NCBI RefSeq assembly: GCF_002105155.1
Contig: NW_019029022.1
Span: forward strand, 124,001-188,000
Source: Lobosporangium transversale
Taxonomy: Eukaryota
Length of the DNA stretch: 64,000 nt
Reading direction: 5' to 3'
In this document: piece after piece, positions 25,382-60,141 of the stretch
Numbering within the stretch: the stretch's first letter is position 1
How the letters are laid out: each line of letters begins with the position of its first letter
Made by a program: the position numbers and the translations under genes
Notes under the pieces: model-generated
What the model was told of the DNA's origin: nothing
What the model saw: only the letters and a program-made list of their open reading frames with translations
The model's database searches: none

Positions 25382-25870
25382 CCCTTCCTTAATCATAATT
25401 TTTTTTTTATTTTTGTCGAGTAGTTTAGGATGTAGAATAGTTGTAGTAAACATCACCAATTACACGAGCCGCCTTTTTTTATTACTATTACTCTCATAAT
25501 AGAAACAATGTGCCTGTATTAATTGCTCATCAATCATTAATTCAATCAAGGGAAGTTACAAGAGTAAGACACCAGTGACAACACAGCAATTGACCTATCG
25601 CCCTTTGATCCTTTCCCCGGGACAGGATAGAGTAGTCTCTATAGGAGGTGCATGGTGAATGCGAAAGCGTTCAAGTATTAAAATTGGAACATACAAAGAT
25701 GTTTTTTGTTTTTCTAGTCCCATTTGAATTTTATGAGTCAAGCCAAACAAACATTTATCATTTGATAACATTTTAAAAAAGTGGGTTTACATCATTTCTT
25801 CTTTGTCTTCTTTAGTCTGTATCTCCCCCTTTTTTTCACCACACCTGCCATTCTTGCAATCACTCCTACC

Positions 25871-27194
25871 ATGAATCTGCTCAACAATAATGACACTCTT
25901 AGTCTTCCCAAGGTAGGTTAAAAAATGCGATATGGTAATTAGTAACGTTACGCCGATAAGCATTGGTCAATTGCTTTTGCCCAAATAATAATAATTATTT
26001 TTAAAAAAAAAAAAAAAAAAAAAAAACGTAGCTTCGAAATGTCTTGATTCGACTTGAAGACACCATCATCTTTGGTAAATGAGATTCTTTTGCATTCCAA
26101 TGACACTAATTGAAGCAAAAAAAAAAAAAAAAACAACCGCTGTCTCTAAATTTTGACCTAATTGAGAGACAATGCTCCTTCTTTCATGGTGTTTGTACAT
26201 CCATAGCTTTAATCGAGCGTGCACAGTTTGCGTTGAACCAACGTATCTACGAGCCGGGAATGTACCAATATGATGATGCGAAGTACAAGGGCTCATTCTT
26301 GGGTTACTTTTTGCATGAAATGGAAAAAGTCCATGGTAAGGGGGAAAAAGAAAAAAAAGAAAAAAGGGGGATTAAAAGATGCAGACCCCCTTATTTTTTT
26401 TTTTTTTAAGCTTCTAGCTTAAAATATATCATTTTTTTTATATGTATTAGCTCGAGTTCGTCGTTACACATCACCAGATGAATATCCATTCACATCACCT
26501 TTGCCAGAGCCGGTGTTACCACCATTAAATTTTCCGCCGGTCCTACATAAGAACGACATTAATGTGAACAAGGATATCATGGAGAGATATTTAAAGGATA
26601 TAGTGCCCAAGATTTGTCCCCCGGGAGATGATCAAAACTATGGATCTTCAGCCACTAGGGATGTAGAATGTCTTCAGGCGCTCAGCAAACGTATCCATTA
26701 CGGTAAATGAAAGAAGAAATTGAATGCTTCAATCTTGCCTCTAAATTTCATTTCTTTTACTTATTTCCTTTTTGTGTGTGTGTGTGTGTTTATGTGTTGG
26801 AGGACATCTAGGCAAGTTCATTGCAGAATCAAAGTTCATTGATCCTAAGGAACAAAAGACATATATTCGATTGATCCAAAACAAAGATCGTGACGGGCTC
26901 ATGAAATTGTTGACCAATCGAACGGTGGAGGAAGCACTGTTGAGACGATTGCGTCGAAAGGCCATGATCTATGGTCATGATATTACAGAAACTGGAGAAA
27001 TCGATGGTGGTATTGCTGTTGATAACAATGGCCAACCACTGTCAGCATCAGAACAAGCTGAACAACACAAGAATCGAAAGATCCGTGCAGATGTGGTGGT
27101 GGATCTCTATGAACGGTTTGTGATCCCTTTGACAAAGGAAGTTGAAGTCGACTACTTGCTGCAGCGATTGGATGGGCTGAAGGTCCCAGAGTAA
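25871..27194 (+). CDS. ARO7: Chorismate mutase (eukaryotic AroQ type), multi-exon
   Basis: Spliced [27 protein letters not shown] ... [13 protein letters not shown] ... [31 protein letters not shown] ... [17 protein letters not shown]. Confidence 0.95.
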
Positions 27195-27563: not shown

Positions 27564-29139
27564 TAGTTAATGTTGCAAGAACGCGCCCATGTAGTACAAG
27601 ATTAAGAGGCTCCAAACTATGTACTAGTTGATGTACATGTAATAAAAAATCTTTCCACTATTCGCATCAGAAGACGATGACCTTATTGTCTTTCTTCTAC
27701 ATCTTCTATATCTATGCGGTTGTATCTTCAAACACCTATATCTCATCCCAAGAGAAATAGTACAAGGAAGTAAAAAATGGTTATCTCAACTATAACCTAC
27801 ACAGCGGGCCCGAATACTCCTTCGTTAACTCGCAAAGGAATATTTTCGATAGAACCCGAAATGCTCTTTCCAATTTATGAGTCGCAAGCCTCCCGTCCTC
27901 CAATAAGCTGGACAGAAATGTAGAAAGTATGTAAATATGAATATATGAAAATATTGGCGAAGAAAAAAAGAGGGAACGGAGTGAAAGGACCAAGGCTGAC
28001 GAGAAAAGGTGGTTGTCTTGTTTGTCTAGACGAGGGCAGCACCTCATTTCTTCCCAAAAGAGGTATCTCTGCCCTACTTCACAAAAGCAATAAGCTGGGG
28101 CGGCCATAAATGTAGAGGATCGTAGACATAGTATGGGTATAGCCTTACCGCCCAGGCTGGAGACAGCAGCTGTACCGCTCCTTCTACAAGATACCACATG
28201 AAATAGACGCTGAATAACCATCTTCCTTCCCTTTCTCCTTGAATAATCTTCCTCACTAGATGAAAGGGTGAGGCAAGAAGAGTGCGTCATTCACCGTCAG
28301 GTTAGTCTCGAATGTAGGGGTGGTTTTGTTCAAAGAGATGTTGCCGGAAGGCTGATTATTCCTCTCGAAAAGTCCAGCTGTCAAGAGCTTACGCTGCAGA
28401 TAAGACAGAATTCCATTTCCGAACTAGGTGGCGGATATATGGATATGGATGATGGATCCCTGGTAAAAGGTGGTGGATAGCAGGCGATAGCAGGGTAAAG
28501 GTAAGAGTAGATATTTATTGAGGAAGAGCTATTCAAGCGGGGATTGCGCCTTTATCTATACTATGATATGATTACACTTAAATGTCGTTATAAATCACGA
28601 TATTCAAGGACATAAACTAGGCGCGAGGCTTGCACGGCCTCAAATTTTGACGGACGTTCACACTCGGGTGGCGGACTTGTAGTTTTGCCGCTAGCCCGTG
28701 ACACCGCCATTCACCCTTATGAAGAGAGAACAAGCAGGGAGGCGGCGCTGAGCTCGAACCATCGGAAGAAGCAGCTAGGCATATCGGAGAATAGGTACAC
28801 TTGAATGAATGAGAACTAAAAAGAGAAAAAATGGAAATAAAAAGACTGTTGGGGGATAGTGAAGGCTAAAAAACATAAATGGATTACATGCCTACTCATC
28901 AAGTTCGTGAAGATCGCTGCATAGTTTCTGGGCGGAGTGTCTTAGGAACGCTTTTGATGAGCGTATAGCGATCCTTCGAGGGGCAGGAGGCGCTTCTTCT
29001 CGGCCAATGCCCTCTTAATTCTATCCTGTCTTTATCTACGTTCCATTTTCCATTCTTTGATTAATTGATCCTCAGTTTCCCTCAAAACCCCCACTGGGCT
29101 TGCAATTAGCTTGGTATTAGTCTCGGACAAGGGATGGGG

Positions 29140-29273
29140 GGAAGTGAGCCCGACATGTGCTATCCAAAGATTGGCTGAGTAGAGAATACTTCAAATATTT
29201 CACTTTTTGTACGCTTTAGAGCCAGACCGATGAATAAACGACTGCAACGCGTCAACAGTCGTGTGTGCATGCG

Positions 29274-29308
<35 letters not shown>

Positions 29309-30615
29309 AAATGAAAAGCGAACAACGATGATGCCATCCAATATCTTTTCATATTCCTACAAGATGAAGGAGGAAGAAAAACAGAAAACACTTTCAAATG
29401 GAGGCAAGGATGATACTCCATCTCATCTTCAAGCTTTGCGAGACTGTATAAACAACAGCAATAACTAAAATACAAGCCTACTGCCCTCGAACTGTTTAGC
29501 CGCTCTACATGGTGGGGTGGCGCAACAAAGAAAAAAAGATCCATTTAGACAGCGAGCAATGTGATGCGGCTGAAAGTAAAAAAATGAGTTTCAGGGCACA
29601 ACCATATTAGCATTCGCATACTCTTACTTCATTAACATTAAGCTCTAGTACTTTTTGATTCTTGGTAATAGGGCTCATTAGGTACTACCAATCAAGCTTT
29701 CATTTTTATTCTCTTCTTCTATTTCCTCTCTTCACTCCTCACAAGAGATGTGATAGACAATCGAGAACTGTGTTTCGGCAGGTTGTATCCTAATGCCTTT
29801 TCCCAGAATACGACATATGCCAATTCTCAACTCACTCGCAGTCCTTTTTTATTATTTTCATGTAAAGTAATAAAATATAAACATATGACATGTGACAGCT
29901 GATTAGGCTGTGCATTTTATTTTATTTTATTTGAAAGCGAATTAATATTTGTATGTCGACCAATAAAAAGCACACGAGTGATGTGTCTTACTTTTACCGC
30001 GTTCTGGAAAAACAAAAAAAAAAAGGTCTGTTTGGACAAAAGCTGCTACGGTACAGTTCCTGCGATAGTCTGTCTATTCCATCTGCTATTGGGAGTGAAG
30101 AGAGAGAATAAAGAAGCAAGCTTGACTGGTAGTGTCTGGTGAACTCCATTACGAAGGATTAATAATAGATACTCGAGCTGAATGTTGTTGAAAATGATAG
30201 CATGCGAGTGTTAATGTGCTTGTGCTCTGAATCTCACTGTCTAAATAGATATTTCTTTGTTGCACCACCTTAGCATGCAGAGAGCAATGTGGCTCGTGCT
30301 CTGATTGTTTGTGGGTAGCCTAATATTGTTGTTTAGATGATCTTGCAGATCTTGAAGACGGAATGTTAGCAATGCTATTCCCCACCTCCACCCATGAGTA
30401 CTTTCTCTTTTTCTCTCTTGTATGCATATGAGAAATGACGGATGATATCATGTAGTGCGCATATTATCCATTTTCAAATTCCGCTATGCCGCTTTTTTTC
30501 TTTTTTTCTTTTTTTTTTTTTGGCCGCTCTAGAGCTCTAGAGCGTACAAAAAGCAAGATGCTTGATATATTCATTATTCAGTCAATACTCTGAAATCGCA
30601 AATTGGTTTCACTTA
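29140..30615. repeat. Old, nearly spacerless palindrome (diverged arms ~750 bp, centre ~29895)
   Basis: Collinear inverted matches: CTTTTTGTACGCTTTAGAGC (29203) with ~30534-30553; CAACAAAGAAA..ATTTAGACAG (~29523-29552) with ~30237-30263; ACTACCAATCAAGCTT (~29684) with ~30118-30133; TCACTCG (29832) with CGAGTGA (29975). Confidence 0.85.
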
Positions 30616-30687
30616 TCATTTTTCCTGCGCGACTTCAAAAACCACTCATCATTCATCCATTCGTCCTTTACTCGCGAGTGCTTTCGA

Positions 30688-30694
30688 TATAAAA
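30688..30694 (+). promoter_or_regulatory. TATA box of the palindrome-borne transcription unit (mirror copy at ~36663-36669, minus strand)
   Basis: TATAAAA followed by a poly-T/pyrimidine leader and then the first splice donor. Confidence 0.55.
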
Positions 30695-30695
30695 T

Positions 30696-30740
<45 letters not shown>

Positions 30741-30953
30741 CCTTTCCTTTTCTTTTCTTTTCTTTCTTTCCCTTTTTTTCTTCTCTTCCAGTTTAGCCTC
30801 CTCGACCAACATGAAAGGTAAGCAACACTCCACAAATATTCACCCTCACTAAAGTCCTAACTCTCTCACCTTATGCTGCACTGTACTTGTTCTGACTTTT
30901 TATTTCCTGTCTATCTCTCTTTCTCTCTCTTTCACATCACTGTTAGACCACAA

Positions 30954-31642
30954 ATGATACAAACTTCTAGCCAGATACAGAGCAGAACTAGGAAACACTC
31001 TGAACAACTCAACAGCAAACTACAGACCAGAAAAAGCAAAAAAAGCCTCACCTGGTCATTCACAGAAGAGCCCTCGCCGCTGTCATCAAGTAAGTATATA
31101 GTTTATGCATGGCTTCGCTTTGTCTTGCTTGTGATTGTCCCTACCATCGAATAAGCTTAGCATACTTACAAAGCTATCTTCGTTCTTTTTTTTTTTTTTT
31201 TTTTTTTTCTTCGTCTTCCTCCTAGCTGTAATAGGGGCCACTAGCCCTAGGCTCATGGCGACGATTGTCCCAAAGACTGCAATGGGCCCATGCAGTGCTT
31301 ATCGAAATGGGGCGAAAGCGGAGCTGTAAGTACAATTTCTTTTAGAAGCACATGTCGTGATTTTCTGTCTGTACTCTGCTGTGCTCTGATTACCAAATAT
31401 TCTAACCACGCGTGTTTTTTTTTTTGTCTTCTTCCCTTAGAGGCTCATCCGCTTGGACTCTAGCCCGCCGGGCCCTCCTCCCGCCTGCCCGCCTGCCCGC
31501 CAATCCCCTTCGCCGATCCCCTTCGCCGATCCTTCCGTCAAGCCCTCGCAACTCCTTGAAGGGGGATCATTGTAGTAGCTCTAGAGAGCCTCTAGCCTCT
31601 GGACCTTACTTTGATCCGAGTGCCCTTGGGGATTTCGCGTAG
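30954..31642 (+). CDS. Putative 145-aa basic S/P/R-rich orphan protein from spliced exons 2-4 (copy 1)
   Basis: Exons 30954-31089, 31226-31325 and 31441-31642 join in frame: MIQTSSQIQSRTRK...EPSPLSS/TVIGATSPRL...GAKAEL/GSSAWTLARR...ALGDFA*. No recognisable domain. Confidence 0.4.
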
Positions 31643-32788
31643 GTAACAGATGACACACAGTTGTGGTCGTCTAAGTATGGTAAGTCAGTAGCAGTGGCCT
31701 GTTTACTAGGCCCTATAGAGCTCGAGTCCCGGCCTTCAAGGAGATCCTCCATCCAGCAGGATCAGGATCAGGATCAGGACCAGGTGTTATCAAGGCCTGA
31801 TAACACCTCAGGTAAGTATACATGCGCATACATAGCAAAGGGCATATTAACTTGATTCTACCATTGCTTTTGTTCTCTCTGTTTAGGTGGGATCTTGGCA
31901 ACTCGGAGCTCTATAGTGTTTAGTAAATAGTTCATTGTTACTGACATCATCCTTAGATTACCCCAATTAGCGAAGCTGCACCAGGCGCCTGGCTGTAGTG
32001 TGTAGTGCATGGCGTAGAGGCGTCATGTTGTGTGACCTGTTACTTGCCGTCTGAACCAAAGGTACTCTGGTCATAGTAGGGCTTCATTGGCTAGTCGCTC
32101 GATAGACTATTGCAATGAGACCTCTGCTTGGAGAAGCGAGAGCAAGGGTCATAAGAGGAGTAGAGGACCTTGAGGCATAAAAATAGATCGAAGAGCACCA
32201 TGCTTCGAATGCGGCTAGGAGCGCAGGGCCAACAGAAAGCAGACAGCAGCCGAGGGCCGAAAGCCAATAGTCAAGAGCCAGCAGTCAGCAGTCAACACCC
32301 AACATCTAACAGCAGAAAAAAAAAAAAAAAAAAAAAAAAAAAACACGCACGAACACGAACACACACAAACATAAGAGAGAAAACCCCAAAGCAAAAAAAA
32401 AAAAAAAAAAAAAAAAGATAAAAACCGAAACTAACTCAAAAAAAAAAAACACTCAAAGTCAAAGGCAGCCTCAGCCAAAGGCATAACAGGCAGCCAAAGC
32501 CATAACAGGCAGCCTTGACCAAATCAAACACACACTGCCCCGATCAAAGCAAGCGCACGCAACCTCACTCACGCCGGCCAAAGGTATCCCAGAATAATCC
32601 AGACAACCAGAGCCAGATGGCCGAAGCCAGGTAACCAAAGCCGGAAACTGAAGCCAATCAACCGAAGGGATGCCAGATGACCGATTCCAGATGATCGAGG
32701 CCGAATAGCAGAAACCGGGCGATCGCAGCCAGTCAAGCAAAGACGGTCAACTTTAGACAGTCAACTAAAGAAAGCCAACCATAGACAA

Positions 32789-32840
32789 TCAACCAAAGCC
32801 AGTCGACCAAAGTCAGTCAACCAAAGTCAGTCAATCAAAG
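32789..32840 (+). repeat. Degenerate 14-nt tandem repeat (CAACCAAAGTCAGT-like); diverged mirror array at ~34385-34470
   Basis: caaccaaagccagt cgaccaaagtcagt caaccaaagtcagt caatcaaag. The mirror reads caaccaaagtcagt cggccgaagctaac cagccgaagtcagt... on the minus strand. Confidence 0.75.
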
Positions 32841-34139
32841 GTTACCAATGTCAATCATTCAAGGCATTACCAAAAAATGTACCTAAAAAAAAAATCAAAA
32901 TATAACTAAAGGTTACCAGGAAGCACACAATAATCCATACATATCAAGACTACTTACTTCTAAAGGCTCAAAGATCTTGCCATCCTTGGGATAGGATGCA
33001 GCTTAAAAGTGAAAGCATAGTAAACAATTAGCAATAAACATTGTTTGTTCGAAGTGTTGGTAGATGGGTATCCTTGATCATTATGATTGTAGTTTCCCCC
33101 TCAATAGAAGGCAACATAACTGTAGAAGGGCAAATAGAATAAGCTGTACTGGTTCTTGCTAGCAAGCCGCTCCGTGAAAGTAACTAGTAGTGTTGCCGTT
33201 TGGGCATATCTATGACCCTGAGGCGCAATCCAATCAAAAACATGAGTAGCTTTAGTGCTATTGGCCTCTATAATCACATGTGGGATCTCTCCCCAGGCTA
33301 TAAAATAACCATTTGGGCGGATTTTTGCACCTTTGGTCTGATTACAGCAACTTAATCAGGTAGTGCATTCCGCCTGCAAAAAGACGATGAGGAAGATGCT
33401 GATCCTATTTTTTGGGGGAGGGAAAACAATACCGTGCATTGCTCTTTTTCATTGGAAGGCATGGCTTAGCAGCTTATGTGTTTAATTGGTAAGTTGCATC
33501 CACAACTACATTGTCTCAATTTTTTCCTCAAGCAAGGCCTTTGCTCATTGACTGCGAGAATGTGCCATTTCATAGCGTTTGTTGTGTTTAGTGGGTCCGT
33601 TTAAAAAACATTCAAGATTCAATTCCCGTTATTTTGAATAATAATCAAAGAACTGGCCATCAAGAGGGGATCTCACTATAAAGATGGCAGTCTACTGAAT
33701 CCACTAAGTTGCAGAAAAAAGAAAATAAACGAGGCAAATCGGGCAATAGGAACGCGTTGATCTCATATCGCTTACACAAATATACTTTCATCAAACCCCC
33801 TCCATGTCCATACTGGACCACCACAAGCGCGCGGCTGGGTGTGGCTCGTGCTCACACAAATGTATTCACTAGCCAAATTATACTCTGCATCCGAATTAGC
33901 GAGGATGATCTCAAGAGTTCTTTTATTAAAAAGCTTTATCGATTGCCATGTCGGATATTTATTGAAAACCAGGACTGCTTGAGCCCGATGGCTATTTCCC
34001 ACTTCATGTTATACACTCCAATGATACCAACGATTCAATGTTCAACTTCTTTCCTTGGATATAGTAGTTATTGAGTAAGTTATACTTTCAATTCGGGGAG
34101 GCAACTACAGTCATAACGATCAAGAACATTTATCCATCT

Positions 34140-34924
34140 ACCAATATTTCAGACAAACAATGTTTATTGCTAATTGTTTACTATGTTGGCGCTTCCGAGC
34201 CGCACTCTATCCTAAGGATGACCAGGTTCGTAGGCAAAAGACTTTTGTTTTGTTATTTAGAGGTAGATAGTCTTTTGTGGATTATTGTTTTGGCCTTTGG
34301 GCTTCTTTGAAAATATTTTTAGTGTATCCTTGCGCAGTGCCTCGGATGATTGGCTTTGATACCTTTCAGTCGGCTGCCATTAGTTGGCTGGCTTTGGCTG
34401 AATGACTTCGGCTGGCTGGCTTCGGCCGACTGACTTCGGCTGGTTAGCTTCGGCCGACTGACTTTGGTTGTCTGGATCATTCTGGATTGCCTTTGTGGTT
34501 TGATTGATGTTGGTATGTTTGTTTTGATTGAGGCACCCTGTGTTTATTTTACCTGGCGCTCCCTTTGGTGATTTGGTTAAGGCTGAGTGTGTTTACTTTG
34601 ACTGGGGAGCTCGCGGCTACCTTGACTAGCGCTGCCCCTAGTGGTTTGATTGAGGCAGCCTGTGCTGGTTTTGATCAAGGTACTCTACTATTGGCTTTAA
34701 TTAAGGTTGCCTTTGGTTGATTTAGTTGAAGCTGCCTATGTCTGGTCTGGCTGTAGCCGCTATGCTTGATCGGGCGGAGAGCGCTGGATGAAGCTGCCTT
34801 GTATTAAGCTTAGTTGTGGAAGTCTTCGGTTGACTATGACTTTGGCGTTGGCATTGGTGTTGGCTTTGGCTTTGGCTTTGGCTTTTTTTGATTTTGTTTT
34901 TGTTTTTTGAGTTAATTCTTTTTT

Positions 34925-34962
<38 letters not shown>

Positions 34963-35007
34963 TTGGGGTTTTCTCTCTTATGTTTGTGTGTGTTCGTGTT
35001 CGTGCGT

Positions 35008-35039
<32 letters not shown>

Positions 35040-36615
35040 CTGCTGTTAGATGTTGGGTGTTGACTGCTGACTGCTGGCTCTTGACTATTGGCTTTCGGCC
35101 CTCGGCTGCTGTCTGCTTTCTGTTGGCCCTGCGCTCCTAGCCGCATTCGAAGCATGGTGCTCTTCGATCTATTTTTATGCCTCAAGGTCCTCTACTCCTC
35201 TTATGACCCTTGCTCTCGCTTCTCCAAGCAGAGGTCTCATTGCAATAGTCTATCGAGCGACTAGCCAATGAAGCCCTACTATGACCAGAGTACCTTTGGT
35301 TCAGACGGCAAGTAACAGGTCACACAACATGACGCCTCTACGCCATGCACTACACACTACAGCCAGGCGCCTGGTGCAGCTTCGCTAATTGGGGTAATCT
35401 AAGGATGATGTCAGTAACAATGAACTATTTACTAAACACTATAGAGCTCCGAGTTGCCAAGATCCCACCTAAACAGAGAGAACAAAAGCAATGGTAGAAT
35501 CAAGTTAATATGCCCTTTGCTATGTATGCGCATGTATACTTACCTGAGGTGTTATCAGGCCTTGATAACACCTGGTCCTGATCCTGATCCTGATCCTGCT
35601 GGATGGAGGATCTCCTTGAAGGCCGGGACTCGAGCTCTATAGGGCCTAGTAAACAGGCCACTGCTACTGACTTACCATACTTAGACGACCACAACTGTGT
35701 GTCATCTGTTACCTACGCGAAATCCCCAAGGGCACTCGGATCAAAGTAAGGTCCAGAGGCTAGAGGCTCTCTAGAGCTACTACAATGATCCCCCTTCAAG
35801 GAGTTGCGAGGGCTTGACGGAAGGATCGGCGAAGGGGATCGGCGAAGGGGATTGGCGGGCAGGCGGGCAGGCGGGAGGAGGGCCCGGCGGGCTAGAGTCC
35901 AAGCGGATGAGCCTCTAAGGGAAGAAGACAAAAAAAAAAACACGCGTGGTTAGAATATTTGGTAATCAGAGCACAGCAGAGTACAGACAGAAAATCACGA
36001 CATGTGCTTCTAAAAGAAATTGTACTTACAGCTCCGCTTTCGCCCCATTTCGATAAGCACTGCATGGGCCCATTGCAGTCTTTGGGACAATCGTCGCCAT
36101 GAGCCTAGGGCTAGTGGCCCCTATTACAGCTAGGAGGAAGACGAAGAAAAAAAAAAAAAAAAAAAAAAAAGAACGAAGATAGCTTTGTAAGTATGCTAAG
36201 CTTATTCGATGGTAGGGACAATCACAAGCAAGACAAAGCGAAGCCATGCATAAACTATATACTTACTTGATGACAGCGGCGAGGGCTCTTCTGTGAATGA
36301 CCAGGTGAGGCTTTTTTTGCTTTTTCTGGTCTGTAGTTTGCTGTTGAGTTGTTCAGAGTGTTTCCTAGTTCTGCTCTGTATCTGGCTAGAAGTTTGTATC
36401 ATTTGTGGTCTAACAGTGATGTGAAAGAGAGAGAAAGAGAGATAGACAGGAAATAAAAAGTCAGAACAAGTACAGTGCAGCATAAGGTGAGAGAGTTAGG
36501 ACTTTAGTGAGGGTGAATATTTGTGGAGTGTTGCTTACCTTTCATGTTGGTCGAGGAGGCTAAACTGGAAGAGAAGAAAAAAAGGGAAAGAAAGAAAAGA
36601 AAAGAAAAGGAAAGG

Positions 36616-36640
<25 letters not shown>
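34140..36640 (-). ncRNA. Putative five-exon structured transcript, copy 2 (convergent with copy 1)
   Basis: Mirror of copy 1 up to the poly-A tract near 34927-34959. Its 3' part is diverged but keeps the 33-bp AATAAA island (34153-34185). Confidence 0.6.
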
Positions 36641-36661
<21 letters not shown>

Positions 36662-37932
36662 ATTTTATATCGAAAGCACTCGCGAGTAAAGGACGAATGG
36701 ATGAATGATGAGTGGTTTTTGAAGTCGCGCAGGAAAAATGATAAGTGAAACCAATTTGCGATTTCAGAGTATTGACTGAATAATGAATATATCAAGCATC
36801 TTGCTTTTTGTACGCTCTAGAGCTCTAGAGCGGCCAAAAAAAAAAAAAGAAAAAAAGAAAAAAAGCGGCATAGCGGAATTTGAAAATGGATAATATGCGC
36901 ACTACATGATATCATCCGTCATTTCTCATATGCATACAAGAGAGAAAAAGAGAAAGTACTCATGGGTGGAGGTGGGGAATAGCATTGCTAACATTCCGTC
37001 TTCAAGATCTGCAAGATCATCTAAACAACAATATTAGGCTACCCACAAACAATCAGAGCACGAGCCACATTGCTCTCTGCATGCTAAGGTGGTGCAACAA
37101 AGAAATATCTATTTAGACAGTGAGATTCAGAGCACAAGCACATTAACACTCGCATGCTATCATTTTCAACAACATTCAGCTCGAGTATCTATTATTAATC
37201 CTTCGTAATGGAGTTCACCAGACACTACCAGTCAAGCTTGCTTCTTTATTCTCTCTCTTCACTCCCAATAGCAGATGGAATAGACAGACTATCGCAGGAA
37301 CTGTACCGTAGCAGCTTTTGTCCAAACAGACCTTTTTTTTTTTGTTTTTCCAGAACGCGGTAAAAGTAAGACACATCACTCGTGTGCTTTTTATTGGTCG
37401 ACATACAAATATTAATTCGCTTTCAAATAAAATAAAATAAAATGCACAGCCTAATCAGCTGTCACATGTCATATGTTTATATTTTATTACTTTACATGAA
37501 AATAATAAAAAAGGACTGCGAGTGAGTTGAGAATTGGCATATGTCGTATTCTGGGAAAAGGCATTAGGATACAACCTGCCGAAACACAGTTCTCGATTGT
37601 CTATCACATCTCTTGTGAGGAGTGAAGAGAGGAAATAGAAGAAGAGAATAAAAATGAAAGCTTGATTGGTAGTACCTAATGAGCCCTATTACCAAGAATC
37701 AAAAAGTACTAGAGCTTAATGTTAATGAAGTAAGAGTATGCGAATGCTAATATGGTTGTGCCCTGAAACTCATTTTTTTACTTTCAGCCGCATCACATTG
37801 CTCGCTGTCTAAATGGATCTTTTTTTCTTTGTTGCGCCACCCCACCATGTAGAGCGGCTAAACAGTTCGAGGGCAGTAGGCTTGTATTTTAGTTATTGCT
37901 GTTGTTTATACAGTCTCGCAAAGCTTGAAGAT
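34927..37932 (-). repeat. Right outer arm of large inverted repeat (~3.0 kb)
   Basis: Reverse complement of 29425-32416. Outer junction ATCTTCAAGC / GCTTGAAGAT is sharp. Confidence 0.97.
35713..36402 (-). CDS. Putative 145-aa orphan protein, copy 2
   Basis: Mirror of 30954-31642 with the same splice sites. Confidence 0.4.
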
Positions 37933-38270
37933 TGTACGCGAACAAGTGCCTACACAAGCAAGGCGTCATTTAATATGGCGACAACGCATCCCAAGATCCC
38001 AAATGAGCATACGCCTGAACTGGCCCTTTGTAGCTTAGAATGTAGCTAGGTAAACTCGATAGCTAGATAGCAAACAATTTCTCAATAAAGATTAAAAAGT
38101 GTTTGATTCAAATAGCAAGTGACGCCTCTCTTAATGCATCTTCTGTTGCGCTGTGTCTGTGCTTTGGAACGATAATGATCAAAAGGCAAGCTCAGGCGAA
38201 TTCGCAAAGGGCAGCCGCTTCTCTGAATGTCTGTTCCTATGCGAAGCAGTCTGTATCCTTTGAGACCATT
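37932..38270 (+). repeat. 339-bp direct repeat, copy 1
   Basis: Matches 39345-39683 with about 10 substitutions counted by eye (~97%). Begins exactly where the palindrome arm ends. Confidence 0.95.
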
Positions 38271-51404: not shown

Positions 51405-53244
51405 TTAGTTGCATTCATCCTCTCCAGGGACAGCAATGCACAGAAAACCAACGCGTAAAGCTTCCTCACTCTCATTCCTTTGACGTATCTGATAGGCCCA
51501 TGCTTCAGATCTGTCCCACAACTCCATCACATCCTTGCCTTCCCTAGCAACATGTTCTGCTTCGACAGTGCACTGAGGTGTCAGGACTATAGCTTCTTTA
51601 GCGGTGCTATGGTGCTTGTAGTCATCCAAGGGATGTGTGATCCTGGCTGGGAAAAGATCCACCCCATCCTTTGTCTTTGTTCCAGTAGTCTCTCCATACG
51701 CAAATTGGATCCACATCGTCTGTACTCGCTCCATGAATCGTTTTTCATCCTCATTCAAGACTTTCTCGAGTGCATAGTCTGGTCCGAACACATACACAAG
51801 ATCAAGACCATGATGCGCACCCCAGCCACGGCCAACAGCATCCACTGCCTCAATAGAGCGTTCAAAATAATACTGAAATAACTTGAACCTTTCTTCTCCC
51901 TCCTTTGAACCCTCGCGCAACGACTGTGTTGATGGTTGGGAGGAGTCCAAATCTTTGCGCTTGGAGAGCACTCGCAAGACAGAGAAAACTGGGTAGGCAA
52001 ACACACAATGATCCAACACTTGCTCAGATACTTTTTTAGCATCTAAATCAGTCTTTGGCTTCCCATATACCTTTTCCCACAATTGTTGGCTGACTTCATC
52101 AGGAGGACAGAACCTCTCGTACAACCTTGGCAGCCCTTTTAGTGTTGTGGGGCCCATGGCCGGTAGAAGCGAGCTCGCCTCATTTAACATGCATCCAGCC
52201 ATGACAGCTTTGACCCCTTGGTCGAACATTTCAGCCTTTTGGGCTCGTATGTAAATATCTTTAGGAACCATCAGTCCGTCCGCATAAGGTGTGACCAGTC
52301 GAACCCTCTTAGAAGATACAGCTAAAGCCAGCTCCATGCTTGGCACTTTTTTCAGTAGCTCAAGCTTCTCTTTCCCGGACAACTCCTTTGGAATATTAAA
52401 ATGATCGACCAGAAAATCAAAGTAAAGCTTTCCTTCCACATGGGGCCGAATGGCTGTAAGAGGGGTAAAAGCGCCAGAATGCATGATCGCTCGATGGAAG
52501 AGGCCATGATGCTGAGGGATTAACATGTGGTAATTGACGCATACAGCACCAGCTGATTGACCCATAGCCGTGATATTGGAGGGATCACCACCAAAAGCTG
52601 CAATGTTGTTGTGGACCCATTCAAACGCAAGACGTTGGTCTTGAAGTCCCCAGTTCCCGGTAGCCCTCTCGTAATCAGTCTTGAGATTTGGATCCGACTC
52701 AATATCTGCAATAAGCTCTGGACAAGAGAAGAACCCGTGGAAGTTAAGTCGATAGTTGGGAACAACCACAATCACAGGACGCCCTAGCTTTGTTGCCTGG
52801 CGGACCAGATTACTGCCATCTAAAATATCCGACTCTTTCTTTTTTTAGTAACTGCTCTCTTCTGCTTCCATTATTATGAGAAGGAAAGGTTCTTATTTTT
52901 AAATGCTTATCAAATCTTACCATAGAGCTCCATAACATTGGCGCCATCACAGGATCCGCCCCCATGAATGAATACAACAACGGCTGCGCCTTTGGATTTT
53001 ACTTCTGCTGTCTCGACCACCTTCTTCTTTAGTGTGTCCTCATGCACAAAAACGTTGAGGTTTAGACAATGTTTCTCATCAAACTCGGTGGTTTCATCGT
53101 CAAAGTCGACAGGTGAAAAAGTATTGATGTGCCTTGAAATGCGCCCTTCTGCTTTGGGTTGAGGACAGACTGGTCTAAAGTGAGCAGAAAAAAAAGAAAC
53201 AAGAGACATTCATTGATATGACTGTATTGAAAGCAAAAAAAGAA

Positions 53245-54197: not shown

Positions 54198-54561
54198 TGT
54201 TGGTTTTAGTTTTAGTCACGTGTAGAGGGTTCGCCACCAACTATTTAACGAGCAACAGCTCAGGAAAATCTGGCTCCTTGTTCCTTATTTTTACACAAGA
54301 GCCATTTGAGTACTGACTGTTCTCGTCCAGGTAAAGAGCCCTCACAACGTTCGTCGTTAGTAGCCATAGATCATTAAAGGTTCCTTATTTTTACACAAGA
54401 GCCATTTGAGTACTGACTGTTCTCGTCCAGTCTTTGAGTAGTGTGTGTGTTCTTTTATTGTGTTAGAATTATTTATCTATCTGCAGCTGGAAGTGACCGG
54501 CTTCATAATCCACCAAAACGACCTAAATCTCCTACCACATCTGCCCCTAAATTTTGCAACA
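54198..54561 (+). repeat. 5' LTR
   Basis: Matches 60763-61126; contains an internal ~51-bp duplication (54280-54330, 54380-54430). Confidence 0.97.
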
Positions 54562-54568
54562 ATATTTC

Positions 54569-54580
54569 TGGTGATCTATG
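54569..54580 (+). promoter_or_regulatory. Primer binding site candidate TGGTGATCTATG
   Basis: Lies 7 nt after the 5' LTR, starts with TGG, and is also complementary to LTR 54365-54376. Confidence 0.6.
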
Positions 54581-57541
54581 CAGGGGGTGGCAGCTACAAT
54601 GTCTTCCAATTTATCGATTCTTCTTACCATGATCCCGAAGTGGCCGTCGGCAGAGGCTGAGGGTCTAACCGCCGCGACATGGATCAGCGATTTTGGAGGT
54701 GTTATCGAAGGAGAAACCCTGAGCAACAAGTTGATGTTCGTCGAGAGGCAGGCGACAGGCAAGATCCAACGCTGGATCAGGCGTTGGAGGATGACAAACA
54801 AGACGAATGGTGCCTGGAGCCAGTTCGTCAGCGATTTCATCATGGAGGCCTCTACCCCTAGAAGCCAGGATGTCACCCTGGACGAGTTGCATTCTATTAA
54901 GCAAGGAGAAGATGAGACGACAGCCAACTATGTACAACGAATGAAACTTACCATGGAACTCCTCGACCCAGAGTCTGGTTGCGACGCACAGCCGTACAAG
55001 ATCCCAACAGCCACCGAGCGTCTACTGGCGTACAGATTTTGCAAGGGTTTGAGGCAAGACCATCCTTTCAAGGTCAAGAACAAAGAAGCGCCTGCGACCT
55101 TGAAGGAAACCTTCGAATCAGTGACACAATTGGTTGAAGGAAATCGTTGGGGCATTGACACCACTGAGAGCCGTGTCATAGCTCGCAGCAACGCTGAGCA
55201 TGCTGCACCAATCGAGACGAATGTTCTGCTTGGATCGACCCTAGTGCCGAGGACGCACTACTCTGGCTTCCTAGCGGACTTCAAAGACGACAAAGAGAAA
55301 GTTAATCAATTAAGCGTAGACGAATTAACAGACATGTTCGGAGCCTGGACCCTTGCTGCCGAGGAGCGAACTCCGGAGGCGCGAATCGCTCAGACTATCT
55401 CAAGAATGAGCCCGGCTGTAGCGAGGCGAGTGTTTGGTTCCTCTGAATTGGCCAAGCATATTAGAGTGGAGGCTAGACCTAATGCCGTGCTCCAACCCGC
55501 CGAAGTTCGAAGTCAGCAGGCTATCCCTATGGCCCGTAGAACCTGCCATAAATGTAATCAAGAGGGGCACCTCTTGTCGTTCTGCCCATTGGTGGAATGC
55601 TTCCGATGTGGCGAGCGAGGCCATACTTCGAAGGTTTGCACTAAGGAACAAGGAAGCCCCGCCACAGGCGCCAATAGCGTCCCATTGGCCACTCAAACTA
55701 ACTCCTCGCTAAGAGTGCAAAGTTTAGAAATCTCCGCCACTAATGTCGCCCAATCATTTATCACGACTAAGCCACAGCGATTAAATTCGACAGGTGCCCA
55801 GCGACGTCGCAGTGAGAGGACAGGCACTCCTGCAGGTCCATCGTCTCAACGAAGAGAGGAAACGAGAGGCACTACTCCACCTGTCCGAGGAATGCAGTGG
55901 GAGGCTGAGGCATCCACTAGTAGTGCGCAACCTTCTGGGGACCCCCACTTCCAGACAGTGACTTTTGATGACAGAGCGGTCGACGGGCGAGAGAATAATG
56001 TTGCAGAAGCTCCAAATGCGACGCCAAAGCGTACCAGGAAGCGTGTCATTCCTGATCCAGTGTTCGTTGATGCGGTCGAAGGATTGAATTTTGATTTGGC
56101 CACTCACTCCAAGTACCGTGGAAAGATGGCAGTGCAACTCAAGGCAGCTGTTACCGAGGCCTGGGCCCGCCATGCCCCTCCAAGAAGAAGCAAGCCTAAG
56201 AGGAGTCAGTCAGCAATAGCTATGGCCAGGAACGTTCAAGGTGGCAAAGGTGATGTCACGACCGTCACCGCCTTGGGACGAGACTTCAACAACGCCGTTA
56301 TTGATCCAGGCAATGACCATACTATGATGGGCCTACATGTGGCAAACGCACTCGGACTGAAGTTAGAGCCTGCTACTCGTGCGGTGCTATTGGCCCATGG
56401 GTCCTTCCAGAAGCTTGCGGGCCGCACAAGACCTATCGATATTTATGTGTCCGGGATCCCCTTGAGAATGTCGATGGGAGTGATCGACTGTAAGGGCACA
56501 TATGACTTCCTCCTTGGCGATGACTGGCTCAAGGCGCTGAAAGCCAAGGCTGATTGGAGCAACGGTATCGTGTACTACGTGGAGAGTGAGGGAAGGACTA
56601 TCACCCTTGGTGGCGGTCTAAATGTTCGCGCCTCAACCCCTCAGCCTACGACATCAACGTACTTGTCTGATGAGAACGATGAGTATGATGATGAGTACGA
56701 CGACTATGAGGATGACGAATCAATCTACGAGACGGAAGAATCCGATGCTGATGCAGGGTACAGAGCCTTGAGAGTGAAGACAATAGAGGTCGGTGACCCG
56801 GATCTGCAGGCGATGACCGCAAGAGTGTTCTCTAGCAAGATACAGTGCGAGAATGACGATGCTCGCGTAAAAAGGCAGCCGTTCGCGGTTGACGGAGTCA
56901 ACGTGGACATCAACCCAAATTTGTCCAATGAGCAGTACGGACAGATTGTGGAGTTACTTGAAAGGAATAAGGACAGGCTGACTACCAACCTTGAGGACCT
57001 CGAAGTGACGTCTATTTTAGAACATGAGATCAACATTCAACCAGGCGCCAAGCCAGTGTACGTAGGATGGTGCAAACGGTACTCGCCGAAGGAGCTTGAC
57101 TTCCTTAAGAAGAGTGTTGATGATGAGCTTAAGGCAGGAAAAATCATAGAGATGGAGAGCGAGTGGTGCGCGCCGCTGAGTCTTGCTCCTAAGAAAGACG
57201 GATCCTTGCGCAAGTGCGTCGCATACATAGGCCTAAATAAGGTTACCGAAAGGGAGAGCTGGCCACTGCCAAACATCGAGGAAATACTTGACAACTTAGG
57301 CGGATTCGAGTACTACAGTAGCCTGGACGGATTTCAAGGTTATTACGTGATTGGCATCAAAAAAGAGCATGTCAAGTATCTTGGCTTCCGTACGCCTTTT
57401 GGGACGTTTGCATACAAGGTAATGCCATTTGGGCTCAAGAACGCGCCACATACCTTCAGTCGCTTCGTTAGAAAGTGTACTCAGACCTTATCGGAAGAGT
57501 GCTTGAGGCGTACATGGACGATGTGTGCGTGCGCACGATGA
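54578..57541 (+). CDS. Gag (two CCHC knuckles)-protease-N-terminal RT polyprotein
   Basis: CHKCNQEGHLLSFC, CFRCGERGHTSKVC; protease AVIDPG...DFLLGDDWL; RT PKKDGSLRKCV, SLDGFQGYY, VMPFGLKNAP. Confidence 0.92.
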   Translation: MQGVAATMSSNLSILLTMIPKWPSAEAEGLTAATWISDFGGVIEGETLSNKLMFVERQATGKIQRWIRRWRMTNKTNGAWSQFVSDFIMEASTPRSQDVTLDELHSIKQGEDETTANYVQRMKLTMELLDPESGCDAQPYKIPTATERLLAYRFCKGLRQDHPFKVKNKEAPATLKETFESVTQLVEGNRWGIDTTESRVIARSNAEHAAPIETNVLLGSTLVPRTHYSGFLADFKDDKEKVNQLSVDELTDMFGAWTLAAEERTPEARIAQTISRMSPAVARRVFGSSELAKHIRVEARPNAVLQPAEVRSQQAIPMARRTCHKCNQEGHLLSFCPLVECFRCGERGHTSKVCTKEQGSPATGANSVPLATQTNSSLRVQSLEISATNVAQSFITTKPQRLNSTGAQRRRSERTGTPAGPSSQRREETRGTTPPVRGMQWEAEASTSSAQPSGDPHFQTVTFDDRAVDGRENNVAEAPNATPKRTRKRVIPDPVFVDAVEGLNFDLATHSKYRGKMAVQLKAAVTEAWARHAPPRRSKPKRSQSAIAMARNVQGGKGDVTTVTALGRDFNNAVIDPGNDHTMMGLHVANALGLKLEPATRAVLLAHGSFQKLAGRTRPIDIYVSGIPLRMSMGVIDCKGTYDFLLGDDWLKALKAKADWSNGIVYYVESEGRTITLGGGLNVRASTPQPTTSTYLSDENDEYDDEYDDYEDDESIYETEESDADAGYRALRVKTIEVGDPDLQAMTARVFSSKIQCENDDARVKRQPFAVDGVNVDINPNLSNEQYGQIVELLERNKDRLTTNLEDLEVTSILEHEINIQPGAKPVYVGWCKRYSPKELDFLKKSVDDELKAGKIIEMESEWCAPLSLAPKKDGSLRKCVAYIGLNKVTERESWPLPNIEEILDNLGGFEYYSSLDGFQGYYVIGIKKEHVKYLGFRTPFGTFAYKVMPFGLKNAPHTFSRFVRKCTQTLSEECLRRTWTMCACAR

Positions 57542-60141
57542 CCTGGGGAGAGCATTTGAGAGCCCTCGATCATACGTTTGCGGCAGCTCGCGCAGGAGGA
57601 GTCAAGTACAAGACTAGTAAGCTCCATTTCGGGTATGACAAGGTGAAGTTTACTGGCCACGTGGTCGGCAAAGATGGAATTGAGGTCATGCCAGACAAAG
57701 TTGACAAGGTCAAGAATTTCACCCCATTACGTAGCAAGGAAGATGTACGTGCATTCTTGGGCTTGACGGGCTACTATCGAAGGTTCGTCGAAAGCTACGC
57801 TCAGATTGCAGAGCCGCTGACGAGGCTCCTCAAGAAAGGTGCAAGCTTCACCATGGGTCCTGAACAGGTGGCCGCAGTAAAGGGTCTCAAAGCCAAGTTA
57901 ATTCAAGCTCCGGTACTTAAGGCTCCAGATTTCGAGAAGGATTGGGTGGTCTCGTGTGACGCCTGCAAATACGCTATGGGCGCAGTGCTAGAACAAGAAG
58001 ATGAGGAGGGTAAGTTGAGACCGGTCTACTTTTACTCGAAGACCTTTCAAGGAGCCGAACGCAACTACTCTACCTTTGAGCAAGAGTGCCTCGCCGTTGT
58101 CATAGCCGTCAAGAAGTTTCGGCCTTACATCCTGGGTAGGTCCGTTGTCGTTTACACAGACCATGCGCCACTCAAATGGTTGTTTTCCAAGACTGATCTG
58201 ACTGGTCGACCTGCGCGGTGGCAGATGATTCTGTCGGAATTCGAGCTGGTCATTAAGACCAAACCAGGTACGAAGAACGGCAATGCAGACGGGATGAGTC
58301 GCATTATGTCGGAAGGAATAGCCACGGATGACATCGATGACGAGGTGCCAGAGTGTCTGAGCCGAAGGGCAGAATCCACAGGAGAAAAGTGGCTGGCGAG
58401 CCAATGGTACGCGAACTTCTACATGTACCTAGCCGAGATGAGACTGGAGTTAGAAGACAAAGTTGAAATGAGGAGGATCAAGAGACAGGCATACAGGTTT
58501 CGACTGACGAAGGAAGGTGACCTACTGTATAGAGATGCCGACAACAGAGAGAAGAGGTGCGTAGTTGAGGATGAAGTCGAGGGTGTGCTGAAGGAGGCAC
58601 ACGACAAGGGCGGTCACTATGGAGCAGAGTCTACCCTAGCAACAGTTCGTGACGTGTGTTGGTGGCCAACGATGAGACGGGATGTATTCCACTGGGTCAA
58701 GTCTTGCGGCCGTTGCCAGCAATTTGGAAGTCGAGTGAAACATAACAGGTTGCATCCTACGGTCTCCGAGTTCCCATTTGAAGTTCTCTTCGTTGACTTG
58801 ATTGAGAACTTAGTCGAAACGCCTAGGGGGATGACCACCATAGTCGTCTTCACAGATTCCTTCACCAAGTGGACTGAAGCACATGCAGTGGCCAACAAAG
58901 GCGCGCAAGGCGTCCTAGCTGTTCTATTTATGAAGATTATCTGTCGGTTCGGGCTCCCTGTTATGATTAGATCGGATGGAGGCCCCGCATTTCGTAACGA
59001 ATTCAAGACTTTCTGTGACCTCTGGGGGATCAAGCACGTCACTGGTTCGACAAGGCATCCGCAAAGTCAGGGACAGGTCGAGGCGACAAATAAGCTTATC
59101 GAGGAGCGACTGAGGAGAGTACTGCCAGCTGGATCTAAGGATTGGGATGCATTCCTACCGAAAGCAGTATTCGACGTGAATTGTCGAGTCGTTAGGAGCA
59201 CAGGAGTGTCGCCAATGGAAGCACTTATGGGCTACACAGGACAGTCAGCGTTACGGCGACTGTTCGCGGACGACAAGTTCCTCGTTTCAGCAGAGGCACC
59301 GGAAGAGAACGATGTAGTCCTAGAAGAAAGCATGGCGAGATTTATCGTAAGAAGAGAGGGAATCCGTGAGTATGCATACTCATGCAAGCTTAATGCCAAT
59401 GACAGGATGAAACGTTACTATGATCGACGTGTTCGCCCACAATCGTTCGAAGTAGGATCAAGGGTTTACATGTTCAATTTGGATTTCGTCACAGGCTTTG
59501 GACGCAAGCTGGAGCCGCGTTGGTTAGGTCCATTTGAAGTAGTCTGGGCGAATGAAAAGGGATCATATGGGATCAAGACGGGTCGAACGCATTATGGCAC
59601 AAAGGATGGGGTAGAAACAATTAATGGAGACTTCCTCAAGCTCGCAACTCAAAGGCAACGATTATGGGAAGATGATTTTATTGAGAACCTACAGAGAGCT
59701 ACTGAGAAGAATCCCCACTACGCCGACACCGAACAACCTCTCGCGCCAGATCAATTACACCAGCCAAGTCTGGGTCGGGGGCGGGAGGACACAGCAAACG
59801 AAGGCACTCCAATCCAATCTCCACATCCCTTGTCGCCAAGGACAGGTCAAGCTCAATCTCGTGACGCTCCTCAGGCGCAAGTTGCACCTTCCGTGAACGA
59901 AGCCTCTCGCGAAGACGCGACTGGTCAGCCAAGCCTCTGGAGAATGCCACCTCGCCGTGAAGAAGATACTTCGCCCGTACGCGTTTCTCAATTGGCTCGT
60001 CTATGTCTTGAAAGGCCTCAGCTGACCGCTTATTTAGCTCTCGAGCGGGGGGGGGAACTGTCTGGGACTGAGGAGATTCTGGAGAAGACTTCTCCGCTGC
60101 AAATGGCGAAACAGAGGAAGGGCCAACCTCGTGGTCAGTAA
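57475..60141 (+). CDS. Remainder of Pol (RT YMDD, RNase H, integrase), joined to the upstream ORF by a frameshift near 57470
   Basis: AYMDDV; FLGLTGYYRRFV; CDACKYAMGAVL; TDHAPL; integrase H..H..CGRC, VD..SDGG..QVE, GPFEV. Confidence 0.92.
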   Translation: MYSDLIGRVLEAYMDDVCVRTMTWGEHLRALDHTFAAARAGGVKYKTSKLHFGYDKVKFTGHVVGKDGIEVMPDKVDKVKNFTPLRSKEDVRAFLGLTGYYRRFVESYAQIAEPLTRLLKKGASFTMGPEQVAAVKGLKAKLIQAPVLKAPDFEKDWVVSCDACKYAMGAVLEQEDEEGKLRPVYFYSKTFQGAERNYSTFEQECLAVVIAVKKFRPYILGRSVVVYTDHAPLKWLFSKTDLTGRPARWQMILSEFELVIKTKPGTKNGNADGMSRIMSEGIATDDIDDEVPECLSRRAESTGEKWLASQWYANFYMYLAEMRLELEDKVEMRRIKRQAYRFRLTKEGDLLYRDADNREKRCVVEDEVEGVLKEAHDKGGHYGAESTLATVRDVCWWPTMRRDVFHWVKSCGRCQQFGSRVKHNRLHPTVSEFPFEVLFVDLIENLVETPRGMTTIVVFTDSFTKWTEAHAVANKGAQGVLAVLFMKIICRFGLPVMIRSDGGPAFRNEFKTFCDLWGIKHVTGSTRHPQSQGQVEATNKLIEERLRRVLPAGSKDWDAFLPKAVFDVNCRVVRSTGVSPMEALMGYTGQSALRRLFADDKFLVSAEAPEENDVVLEESMARFIVRREGIREYAYSCKLNANDRMKRYYDRRVRPQSFEVGSRVYMFNLDFVTGFGRKLEPRWLGPFEVVWANEKGSYGIKTGRTHYGTKDGVETINGDFLKLATQRQRLWEDDFIENLQRATEKNPHYADTEQPLAPDQLHQPSLGRGREDTANEGTPIQSPHPLSPRTGQAQSRDAPQAQVAPSVNEASREDATGQPSLWRMPPRREEDTSPVRVSQLARLCLERPQLTAYLALERGGELSGTEEILEKTSPLQMAKQRKGQPRGQ

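What the first reader, a model, noticed from the sequence alone, without database searches (positions are those of the whole stretch)
31542..32143. ~600-nt rod-like RNA hairpin with strand-specific G.U bias and an intron in its apical region
Seen, pairing by hand: 31684-31727 with 31901-31945 (36 Watson-Crick, 6 G.U, 2 mismatches, 1 bulge); 31639-31649 with 32037-32047; 31567-31629 with 32056-32118 (repeated 2x2 internal loops); 31542-31566 with 32119-32143. Of the transition-type differences counted, ~15 give G.U pairs on the + strand and only ~2 give A.C mismatches, which indicates selection on RNA structure in the spliced sense. Side hairpins: AGGTGTTATCA/TGATAACACCT (31782-31808) and 31975-31999. 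An alternative 11-bp pairing CTCCTTGAAGG (31552) / CCTTCAAGGAG (31733) competes with the rod. Mirror copy at ~35212-35813. Inference: a Dicer substrate (pri-milRNA-like) or a protein-scaffolding arm.
Basis: partly seen in the sequence, partly recalled or inferred. Interest (0 to 1): 0.88.

Follow-up and report, generated by a model that had tools for sequence, protein, structure and literature searches.

The report
Multi-copy fungal long hairpin RNA genes
A fungus (likely Lobosporangium) carries several copies of a spliced, likely non-coding gene whose RNA is predicted to fold into a 600-letter double-stranded rod that selection has likely kept paired and that is likely cut into small silencing RNAs, a gene type known from flies and maize that the papers searched do not describe for this fungal group.

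Summary
The rod is real. 31542-32143 folds at -284.8 kcal/mol (z -11.75), and an identical mirror copy lies at 35212-35813. Strand-neutral alignment gives 18 G.U to 3 A.C, against 95 to 96 in two old DNA palindromes beside it (Fisher p 0.002). The z-score alone does not separate the strands (-11.50).

The rod is the last exon of a spliced, multi-copy gene family. One run behaves as RNA and joins the upstream exons in the + sense. Related gene models exist only in Lobosporangium transversale, and they disagree on reading frame. Paralog differences mostly keep the pairing, and the 42-pair upper duplex is unchanged in two fully accounted contigs.

The apical 'intron' is retained in that run's contigs, and the 11-bp switch has near-zero predicted probability. 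The expressed copies differ from the window's copy.

Best reading (0.5): a hairpin-RNA-like family feeding Dicer. No small RNA or target was seen.

The parts
31542..32143 (+). Predicted RNA rod: 151 pairs in the main stems (68 A-U, 65 G-C, 18 G.U), inside the last exon
31542..31629 (+). Basal 5' arm, pairing with 32056-32143; helices of 1-12 bp broken by six 2x2 loops, two of them GA/GA
31636..31681 (+). Middle 5' arm, pairing with 32029-32049 and 31946-31968; the most variable stem among paralogs, with mostly pair-keeping changes
31684..31727 (+). 5' strand of the 42-pair upper duplex (helices of 14, 13, 11 and 4 bp); candidate small-RNA source (inferred)
   Evidence: no substitution in two fully accounted contigs
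31901..31945 (+). 3' strand of the upper duplex
31757..31811 (+). Apical region: hexamer repeats (one more unit in common paralogs) and side hairpin 31781-31811
31812..31886 (+). 75-nt intron-like segment with canonical splice signals; retained in contigs of the RNA-like run
31975..31999 (+). Side hairpin; a paralog contig swaps A31980-U31994 for G-C, with both sides in one record
   Evidence: loose ends paired by hand
30534..30694 (+). Promoter-like block with a TATA-like word at 30688 (inferred); a 70% similar copy faces the other way at 29142-29222
30792..30817 (+). 3' end of putative exon 1 (start unknown); intron 30818-30946 has GT..AG ends; splicing not examined in RNA
   Evidence: gene model P0002 uses this donor
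30947..31089 (+). Exon 2; its end is joined to exon 3 in an X7 contig (intron 31090-31225)
   Evidence: loose end at 31242
31226..31325 (+). Exon 3; joined to exon 4 in an X7 contig (intron 31326-31440)
   Evidence: tables 5 and 5c
31441..32306 (+). Last exon (3' end not determined) holding the rod; 31466-31523 is absent from the expressed paralogs
35212..35813 (-). Identical mirror copy of the rod
34867..37932 (-). 99% identical inverted copy of 29425-32483; differences are homopolymer lengths and 14 mismatches at the inner end
32491..34728 (.). Old tail-to-tail palindrome between the two genes (arms 32491-33113 and 34083-34728); used as a control
29119..30634 (.). Old head-to-head palindrome; its core 29577-30244 is a second hairpin with no significant G.U excess (22:13, p 0.18)

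Best explanation
This is one copy of a multi-copy, spliced, likely non-coding gene family whose last exon is predicted to fold into a long imperfect hairpin that is likely cut by Dicer into small silencing RNAs. SHOWN: the inverted complementarity, the G.U excess on the spliced strand, other copies of the gene, and splicing of a paralog's transcript upstream of the rod. INFERRED: the rod arose by a local inverted duplication of the kind seen repeatedly at this locus. It then drifted under selection to stay paired as RNA, so G.U pairs were tolerated and A.C mismatches removed. The whole unit, promoter and introns included, was copied as DNA to several places. UNTESTED: Dicer takes one or two ~21-25-nt duplexes from the 42-pair upper stem, and Argonaute uses them against an unknown transcript, most plausibly a mobile or otherwise selfish element. 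The short-helix basal half would position or protect the precursor rather than be diced.
For: G.U:A.C is 18:3 in the rod against 95:96 in adjacent DNA palindromes (Fisher p 0.002). Of 15 listed paralog substitutions in the stems, 2 break a pair against 5.4 expected (p 0.015) and 7 fall at unpaired positions against 3.0 expected (p 0.018). Applying the 11 substitutions and hexamer insertion of X7 record 25 gives -292.0 against -284.8 kcal/mol. One two-sided change lies within a single contig, and further matching 5'/3' changes appear unphased (paired by hand; P0009). The upper duplex has no substitution among 10 and 11 changes in two contigs (P 0.036 and 0.038, not independent), so its sequence is kept and not only its pairing, as expected for a small-RNA source. 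X7 joins exons 2-3 and 3-4 at GT..AG ends. Copies: two gene models on other contigs of one annotation set and two in another, and 59-142 contigs at 85-100% likeness in three DNA runs. Spliced, multi-copy hairpin genes match Drosophila hpRNAs (PMC10317233, passages). G:U hairpins still trigger RNAi in plants (PMC9263138, abstract). Hairpin-triggered silencing works in Mucor and Rhizopus, and RNAi works in Mortierella alpina (PMC8705501, passages).
Against: No small-RNA data were seen, and Dicer and Argonaute genes were not checked in this organism. No target or parent gene was found: 387 arm 21-mers match the rest of the window no better than 97 shuffles (best score 4.5 in both), though the window is a small part of the genome. 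Basal helices are mostly 4-7 bp, poor for Dicer, and tandem GA loops suit protein binding. 37 of 77 variants were not shown, and the shown ones are the best supported. In the diverged model P0009, 4 of 10 inferred single changes break the window's pairs, no fewer than the 19 of 60 expected without compensation; its own 3' arm is unknown. The control palindromes are not known to be transcribed, so transcription-linked mutation bias is not excluded by that test alone. The window's own allele (31466-31523) was not seen joined in the RNA-like run.
Confidence: 0.5

Rival explanations
1. Structured long non-coding RNA that acts whole. The rod, with tandem GA and UU loops and hexamer repeats at its tip, binds proteins or localises the RNA and is not diced.
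For: Regular 2x2 loops and short helices. Side hairpin 31975-31999 is kept in two diverged paralogs. Long unprocessed precursor pieces, including the retained apical segment, are present in X7 contigs.
Against: Sequence invariance is concentrated in the one long duplex. No Rfam family matches. Dispersed, diverging copies fit hpRNA dynamics (PMC10317233, passages).
Confidence: 0.2
2. The unit is a non-autonomous DNA mobile element, or its cargo. The hairpin RNA serves the element's own replication or its escape from silencing.
For: Promoter, introns and rod were copied together into different upstream contexts: the N-termini of P0002 and P0011 have no match in the window. Nested head-to-head and tail-to-tail palindromes. 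Unreviewed notes report hairpin-bearing and Mutator-type transposons in this genome (e1-10421669, e1-10421634).
Against: No transposase or other Pfam family in the unit's ORFs that were scanned. No target-site duplication was evident by eye at 29425/37932. The left arm boundary lies inside an older palindrome. Introns in the copies argue against retrotransposition of the spliced RNA.
Confidence: 0.15
3. Neutral, decaying inverted duplication. Transcription-linked C>T and A>G bias on the coding strand mimics G.U selection.
For: The locus forms palindromes repeatedly. z-scores are equal on both strands. The basal arm alone is not significant.
Against: Two-sided changes, pair gains and the unchanged upper duplex. 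The transcribed flank 32144-32310 is A-rich, not G/T-rich (A 0.365, T 0.114).
Confidence: 0.08
4. Small-protein mRNA whose 3' UTR folds back on the coding region and blocks splicing or translation.
For: Four annotated hypothetical proteins cover the 5' arm. An ORF runs through exons 2-4 in the window. Five of 7 apical variants fall at third positions in the P0001 frame (counted by hand). Splice-like sites in the arm are predicted to be paired (0.76-0.94).
Against: The models use different frames and acceptors for the same DNA. The main X7 contig has a stop just inside exon 4 in the window's frame (table 5c). No relative outside this species: of the 10 hits among 1.84 billion representatives, the 3 that match the peptide are this species' models; 3 of the other 7 were read and are unrelated repeat proteins. 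No Atlas hit. The predicted arm intron is bridged by X7 contigs.
Confidence: 0.05
5. Endogenised viroid-like or retrozyme-like rod RNA.
For: Length and rod shape resemble fungal viroid-like RNAs (712 nt in PMC13343976, abstract start only).
Against: No ribozyme family at gathering score or at E up to 5. No terminal direct repeats around the rod. It sits in a spliced gene. The 11 viral-contig hits do not extend beyond 28 nt.
Confidence: 0.02

Closest known systems
Drosophila hairpin RNA (hpRNA) genes (PMC10317233; passages read)
   Same: Spliced mRNA-like precursors with long duplex arms; tandem, local and dispersed copies, some exact; fast, lineage-specific turnover.
   Different: Fungal host. 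No Dicer-dependent siRNA and no homologous target shown here. The basal arm is broken into short helices by 2x2 loops.
Maize/teosinte Tpd1 and other hp-siRNA loci (PMC11390486; passages read)
   Same: Long non-coding hairpin, lineage-specific, structure favoured on one strand.
   Different: Those give 22-nt DCL2 products with a known target and include near-perfect, kilobase-scale stems. This rod has about 150 pairs in imperfect arms.
Fungal milRNA precursors (PMC9757828; section 11 and passages read)
   Same: Intergenic fungal hairpin with no Rfam hit.
   Different: Well-supported milRNA hairpins are short, with under 20 nt between the duplex strands. Here the rod is 600 nt with a ~170-nt apical region and is multi-copy.
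Engineered G:U hairpin transgenes (PMC9263138; abstract read)
   Same: G:U pairs keep the RNA duplex while breaking the DNA inverted repeat.
   Different: Artificial and in plants; any escape from self-silencing here is only inferred.

Membership tests
hairpin RNA (hpRNA) genes | Long intramolecular duplex in one transcript | tested here: met
   151 pairs, z -11.75; prediction only, no probing
hairpin RNA (hpRNA) genes | Spliced, mRNA-like primary transcript | tested here: met
   Exon 2-3 and 3-4 joins in X7 contigs for a paralog; cap and poly(A) not seen
hairpin RNA (hpRNA) genes | Dicer-dependent ~21-22-nt siRNAs from the duplex | not testable with these tools
   No small-RNA library was listed
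hairpin RNA (hpRNA) genes | Arms homologous or antisense to a target gene | tested here: inconclusive
   No match in the window beyond shuffles; whole genome not held
hairpin RNA (hpRNA) genes | No conserved protein product | tested here: inconclusive
   Gene models disagree on frame and have no outside relatives; no translation data
fungal milRNA precursor | Short hairpin with under 20 nt between the duplex strands | tested here: not met
   Apical region 31728-31900 is about 170 nt against PMC9757828 section 11
fungal milRNA precursor | One dominant 19-25-nt product with its star strand | not testable with these tools
   No small-RNA data
fungal milRNA precursor | Conserved in related genomes | tested here: inconclusive
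   Present in two annotation sets of one species; a 20-mer had 0 metagenome hits
viroid-like RNA / retrozyme | Self-cleaving ribozyme and terminal repeats or circular form | tested here: not met
   No Rfam ribozyme and no flanking direct repeats; circular form not testable
foldback / Mutator-like DNA element | Terminal inverted repeats with target-site duplication and shared ends among copies | tested here: inconclusive
   3-kb inverted arms exist, but one end abuts a 339-bp repeat and the other lies inside an older palindrome; ends of other copies not available
known structured RNAs in Rfam 15 | Covariance-model match at gathering score | tested here: not met
   0 hits in the window; 2 sub-threshold snoRNA hits outside the rod

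The most novel reading that the evidence does not exclude
An early-diverging fungus has evolved its own amplified family of long hairpin-RNA genes, a fungal counterpart of fly and maize hpRNAs. The genes are born and spread by repeated inverted duplication, tuned by G.U drift to stay double-stranded as RNA but not as DNA, and aimed at a selfish element in the same genome.
Probability: 0.3. Interest if true: 0.78.

Novelty: new variant of a known kind. Interest (0 to 1): 0.57.

Why it matters
Hairpin-RNA gene families that expand within a lineage mark hidden genetic conflict in flies and maize (PMC10317233, PMC11390486; passages). Well-supported fungal small-RNA hairpins are short (PMC9757828). 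None of nine paper searches (listings read) showed a long, multi-copy hairpin gene family in Mortierellaceae. If small RNAs come from the invariant 42-pair duplex, their sequence names the target directly, so one small-RNA library would test the idea. If they do not, this is a structured RNA family under selection with no Rfam match. Public annotations currently call these loci hypothetical proteins.

Tried and rejected
No whole genome is held, so copies could not be aligned and no covariance model was built. The run search reported no RNA holder listed; X7 was only a guess, and the share values were not used as evidence. 4 of the 8 listed runs were laid, on 31226-32310 only. Summed depth over the rod is about 11, 13 and 18 times that of the window-identical contig in X1, X2 and X4, but the tool warns this is no copy number; treated as a hint only. 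The lack of X7 cover at 31466-31523 is bridged by a joint that also exists in DNA runs, so it marks a paralog, not splicing.

A 20-mer from the upper stem had 0 metagenome hits. A 17-mer had 11 viral hits, none extending past 28 nt. Synteny via the neighbouring chorismate-mutase-like exon returned 21 loci; 5 were compared with the window and 2 scanned for hairpins. Gene order differs and the best inverted-repeat scores (59, 58) are at background, so this is inconclusive.

The exon-2 peptide search found no protein at E up to 1 among 3 candidates. Pfam on 11 short ORFs gave one sub-threshold hit outside the rod. No similarity was found between the rod and the second hairpin, or the 339-bp repeat. 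RIP was considered: the contexts of the G.U sites show no CpA pattern by eye. Sequestration of the apical splice sites was not supported (pairing 0.33-0.57, similar to the spliced introns at 0.41-0.81), so its retention is unexplained. A bacterial promoter scan was not informative. tRNA scan: none. PMC4289472 is not held. No supplements were opened. Earlier-note look-ups by sequence and by words returned nothing.

Full report
SETTING. The window is fungal, with spliceosomal introns, Med12 and Sdh5 genes and a Ty3-type element. An F-box-like protein falls among Mucoromycota clusters. The only relatives of the peptides readable from this locus are hypothetical proteins of Lobosporangium transversale, so the host is likely that species (inference). 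The locus lies between a chorismate-mutase-like gene (about 25870-27194) and a zinc-finger HIT-like gene (about 39824-40630); both names are recalled from the sequence and come from no call.

OBSERVATION. The + strand of 31542-32143 folds into one rod at -284.8 kcal/mol; 0 of 20 shuffles fold as well (z -11.75). The - strand gives -222.5 and z -11.50, so z does not separate the strands. I aligned one arm to the reverse complement of the other with no credit for G.U. This gave 18 G.U to 2 A.C globally and 18 to 3 locally (p 0.0015). The same scoring on two older DNA palindromes next door gave 33:41 and 62:55, together 95:96 (Fisher p 0.002). The second hairpin at 29577-30244 gave 22:13 (p 0.18). 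The basal half of the rod alone gave 9:3 (p 0.15). The 11-bp alternative helix has probability 0.0 at every pair.

ARCHITECTURE. 29425-32483 is repeated in inverted form at 34867-37932 at 99% identity, and the rod copy is exact. The centre between the arms is itself an old palindrome at about 61-79% identity. The second hairpin is the centre of another old palindrome that reaches a promoter-like block on each side. The locus is therefore an alternating head-to-head, tail-to-tail array of different ages, cut on the right by a pair of 339-bp direct repeats.

TRANSCRIPT. Run X7, listed only as a guess at RNA, behaves as RNA. One contig joins 31325 to the first letters of exon 4 and then to 31524, and a loose end at 31242 is the end of exon 2. 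The skipped pieces have GT..AG ends on the + strand. The three DNA runs cover intron 3. The expressed form lacks 31466-31523, a deletion that also stands in the DNA runs, so expression is shown for paralogs and not for the window's allele. X7 record 25 spans 31626-31977 without a break, and a more diverged paralog also continues into its own version of the apical segment. None of the 8 listed joints removes 31812-31886. The segment has good splice signals but is retained in what these contigs show; rare spliced forms cannot be excluded.

FAMILY. 62, 142 and 59 contigs of the three DNA runs lie on 1085 bases at 85-100% likeness, with many alternative letters. Two gene models lie on contigs of 22,734 and 112,965 nt in one annotation set and two on short contigs in another. 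These models read the same DNA in different frames and with different acceptors. In the window's own ORF, the main X7 contig has an early stop. Among 1.84 billion representatives the search gave 10 hits: 3 are these models, 3 others that I read are unrelated repeat proteins, and 4 were not read. I read the family as non-coding (inference).

SELECTION ON STRUCTURE. One search lists 40 of 77 variant places, 15 of them in the main stems. Two break a pair against 5.4 expected (p 0.015), and 7 sit at unpaired places against 3.0 (p 0.018). The changes of X7 record 25, applied to the window sequence, fold at -292.0. I paired the 30-letter loose ends by hand. One contig swaps A31980-U31994 for G-C, with both sides in one record. 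Another changes A31957 to G, matching the listed U31670-to-C change, turns one G.U into G-C and one G-C into G.U, and adds two letters opposite the two-base bulge at 31682-83. A third turns two wobbles into Watson-Crick pairs and changes G32062 to A, which matches the codon implied by an Ile in P0009; it also changes A32042 and A32058, whose partners are not resolved. The 5'/3' phase is not shown for the last two. Against this, 4 of 10 single changes implied by P0009 break the window's pairs (19 of 60 expected). In two contigs whose differences are all accounted for (10 and 11 substitutions), none falls in the 89 nt of the upper duplex (P 0.036 and 0.038, not independent).

MECHANISM. Most likely a long hairpin-RNA gene family. 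Polymerase II makes a spliced precursor and the last exon folds back. Dicer would cut the 42-pair duplex and Argonaute would silence a matching transcript. G.U drift would keep the RNA paired while the DNA repeat decays, as engineered G:U hairpins do in plants (PMC9263138, abstract). Dicing and the target are untested, and a target scan within the window was no better than shuffles. Rivals: a whole-RNA scaffold (0.2), a mobile-element RNA (0.15), neutral decay with strand-biased mutation (0.08), a structured mRNA (0.05) and an endogenised viroid-like RNA (0.02).

COMPARISON AND NOVELTY. It looks like Drosophila hpRNAs (PMC10317233, passages) and maize hp-siRNA loci (PMC11390486, passages). Membership cannot be granted without small RNAs. 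It fails the short-loop feature of fungal milRNAs (PMC9757828, section 11 and passages). RNAi works in Mucor, Rhizopus and Mortierella alpina (PMC8705501, passages). Rfam has no match. Nine paper searches (listings and abstract starts only) showed nothing on such a family in Mortierellaceae; most subscription papers and all supplements were not seen. Verdict: a real feature, under likely RNA-level selection, a new variant of a known kind; interest 0.57.

Noticed in passing
window 29577-30244 (mirror about 37113-37780): Second long hairpin (-244 kcal/mol on +, -219 on -, for 29560-30260), the core of an old palindrome flanked by two outward-facing promoter-like blocks; G.U excess not significant (22:13).
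   Followed up: partly
window 37932-38270 and 39345-39683: 339-bp direct repeats (97%) with TG..CA-like ends and an AATAAA, 1.4 kb apart, abutting the right arm of the palindrome; no target-site duplication seen by eye; possibly a small LTR-type or long-direct-repeat element.
   Followed up: partly
window 30534-30614, 29142-29222, 39213-39240: Two short upstream motifs recur in front of the gene, facing the other way on the left flank, and in swapped order between the 339-bp repeats; possibly a shared transcription-factor module.
   Followed up: partly
window about 38290-38370: Short hairpin-like complementarity noticed by eye just inside the first 339-bp repeat; not folded.
   Followed up: no
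window 32727-32838 and 34371-34468: Degenerate 14-bp tandem arrays in both arms of the central palindrome.
   Followed up: no
window 32316-32424 (- strand) and its mirror 34928-35050 (+ strand): Poly-T tracts ending in an acceptor-like TTAG on the strand opposite the gene; could mark an antisense transcript from the centre that would pair with the hairpin RNA.
   Followed up: no
window 31639-31710 / 31720: Public gene models call an intron here, inside the 5' arm, with two different acceptors; both acceptors are predicted to be paired, and X7 contigs bridge the region.
   Followed up: yes
window 54198-61130: Apparently young Ty3/gypsy retrotransposon (368-bp LTRs, 99.7% identical) between two 83% identical carboxylesterase-like gene copies (51402-53220, 61669-63517; name recalled, not tested).
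   Followed up: no
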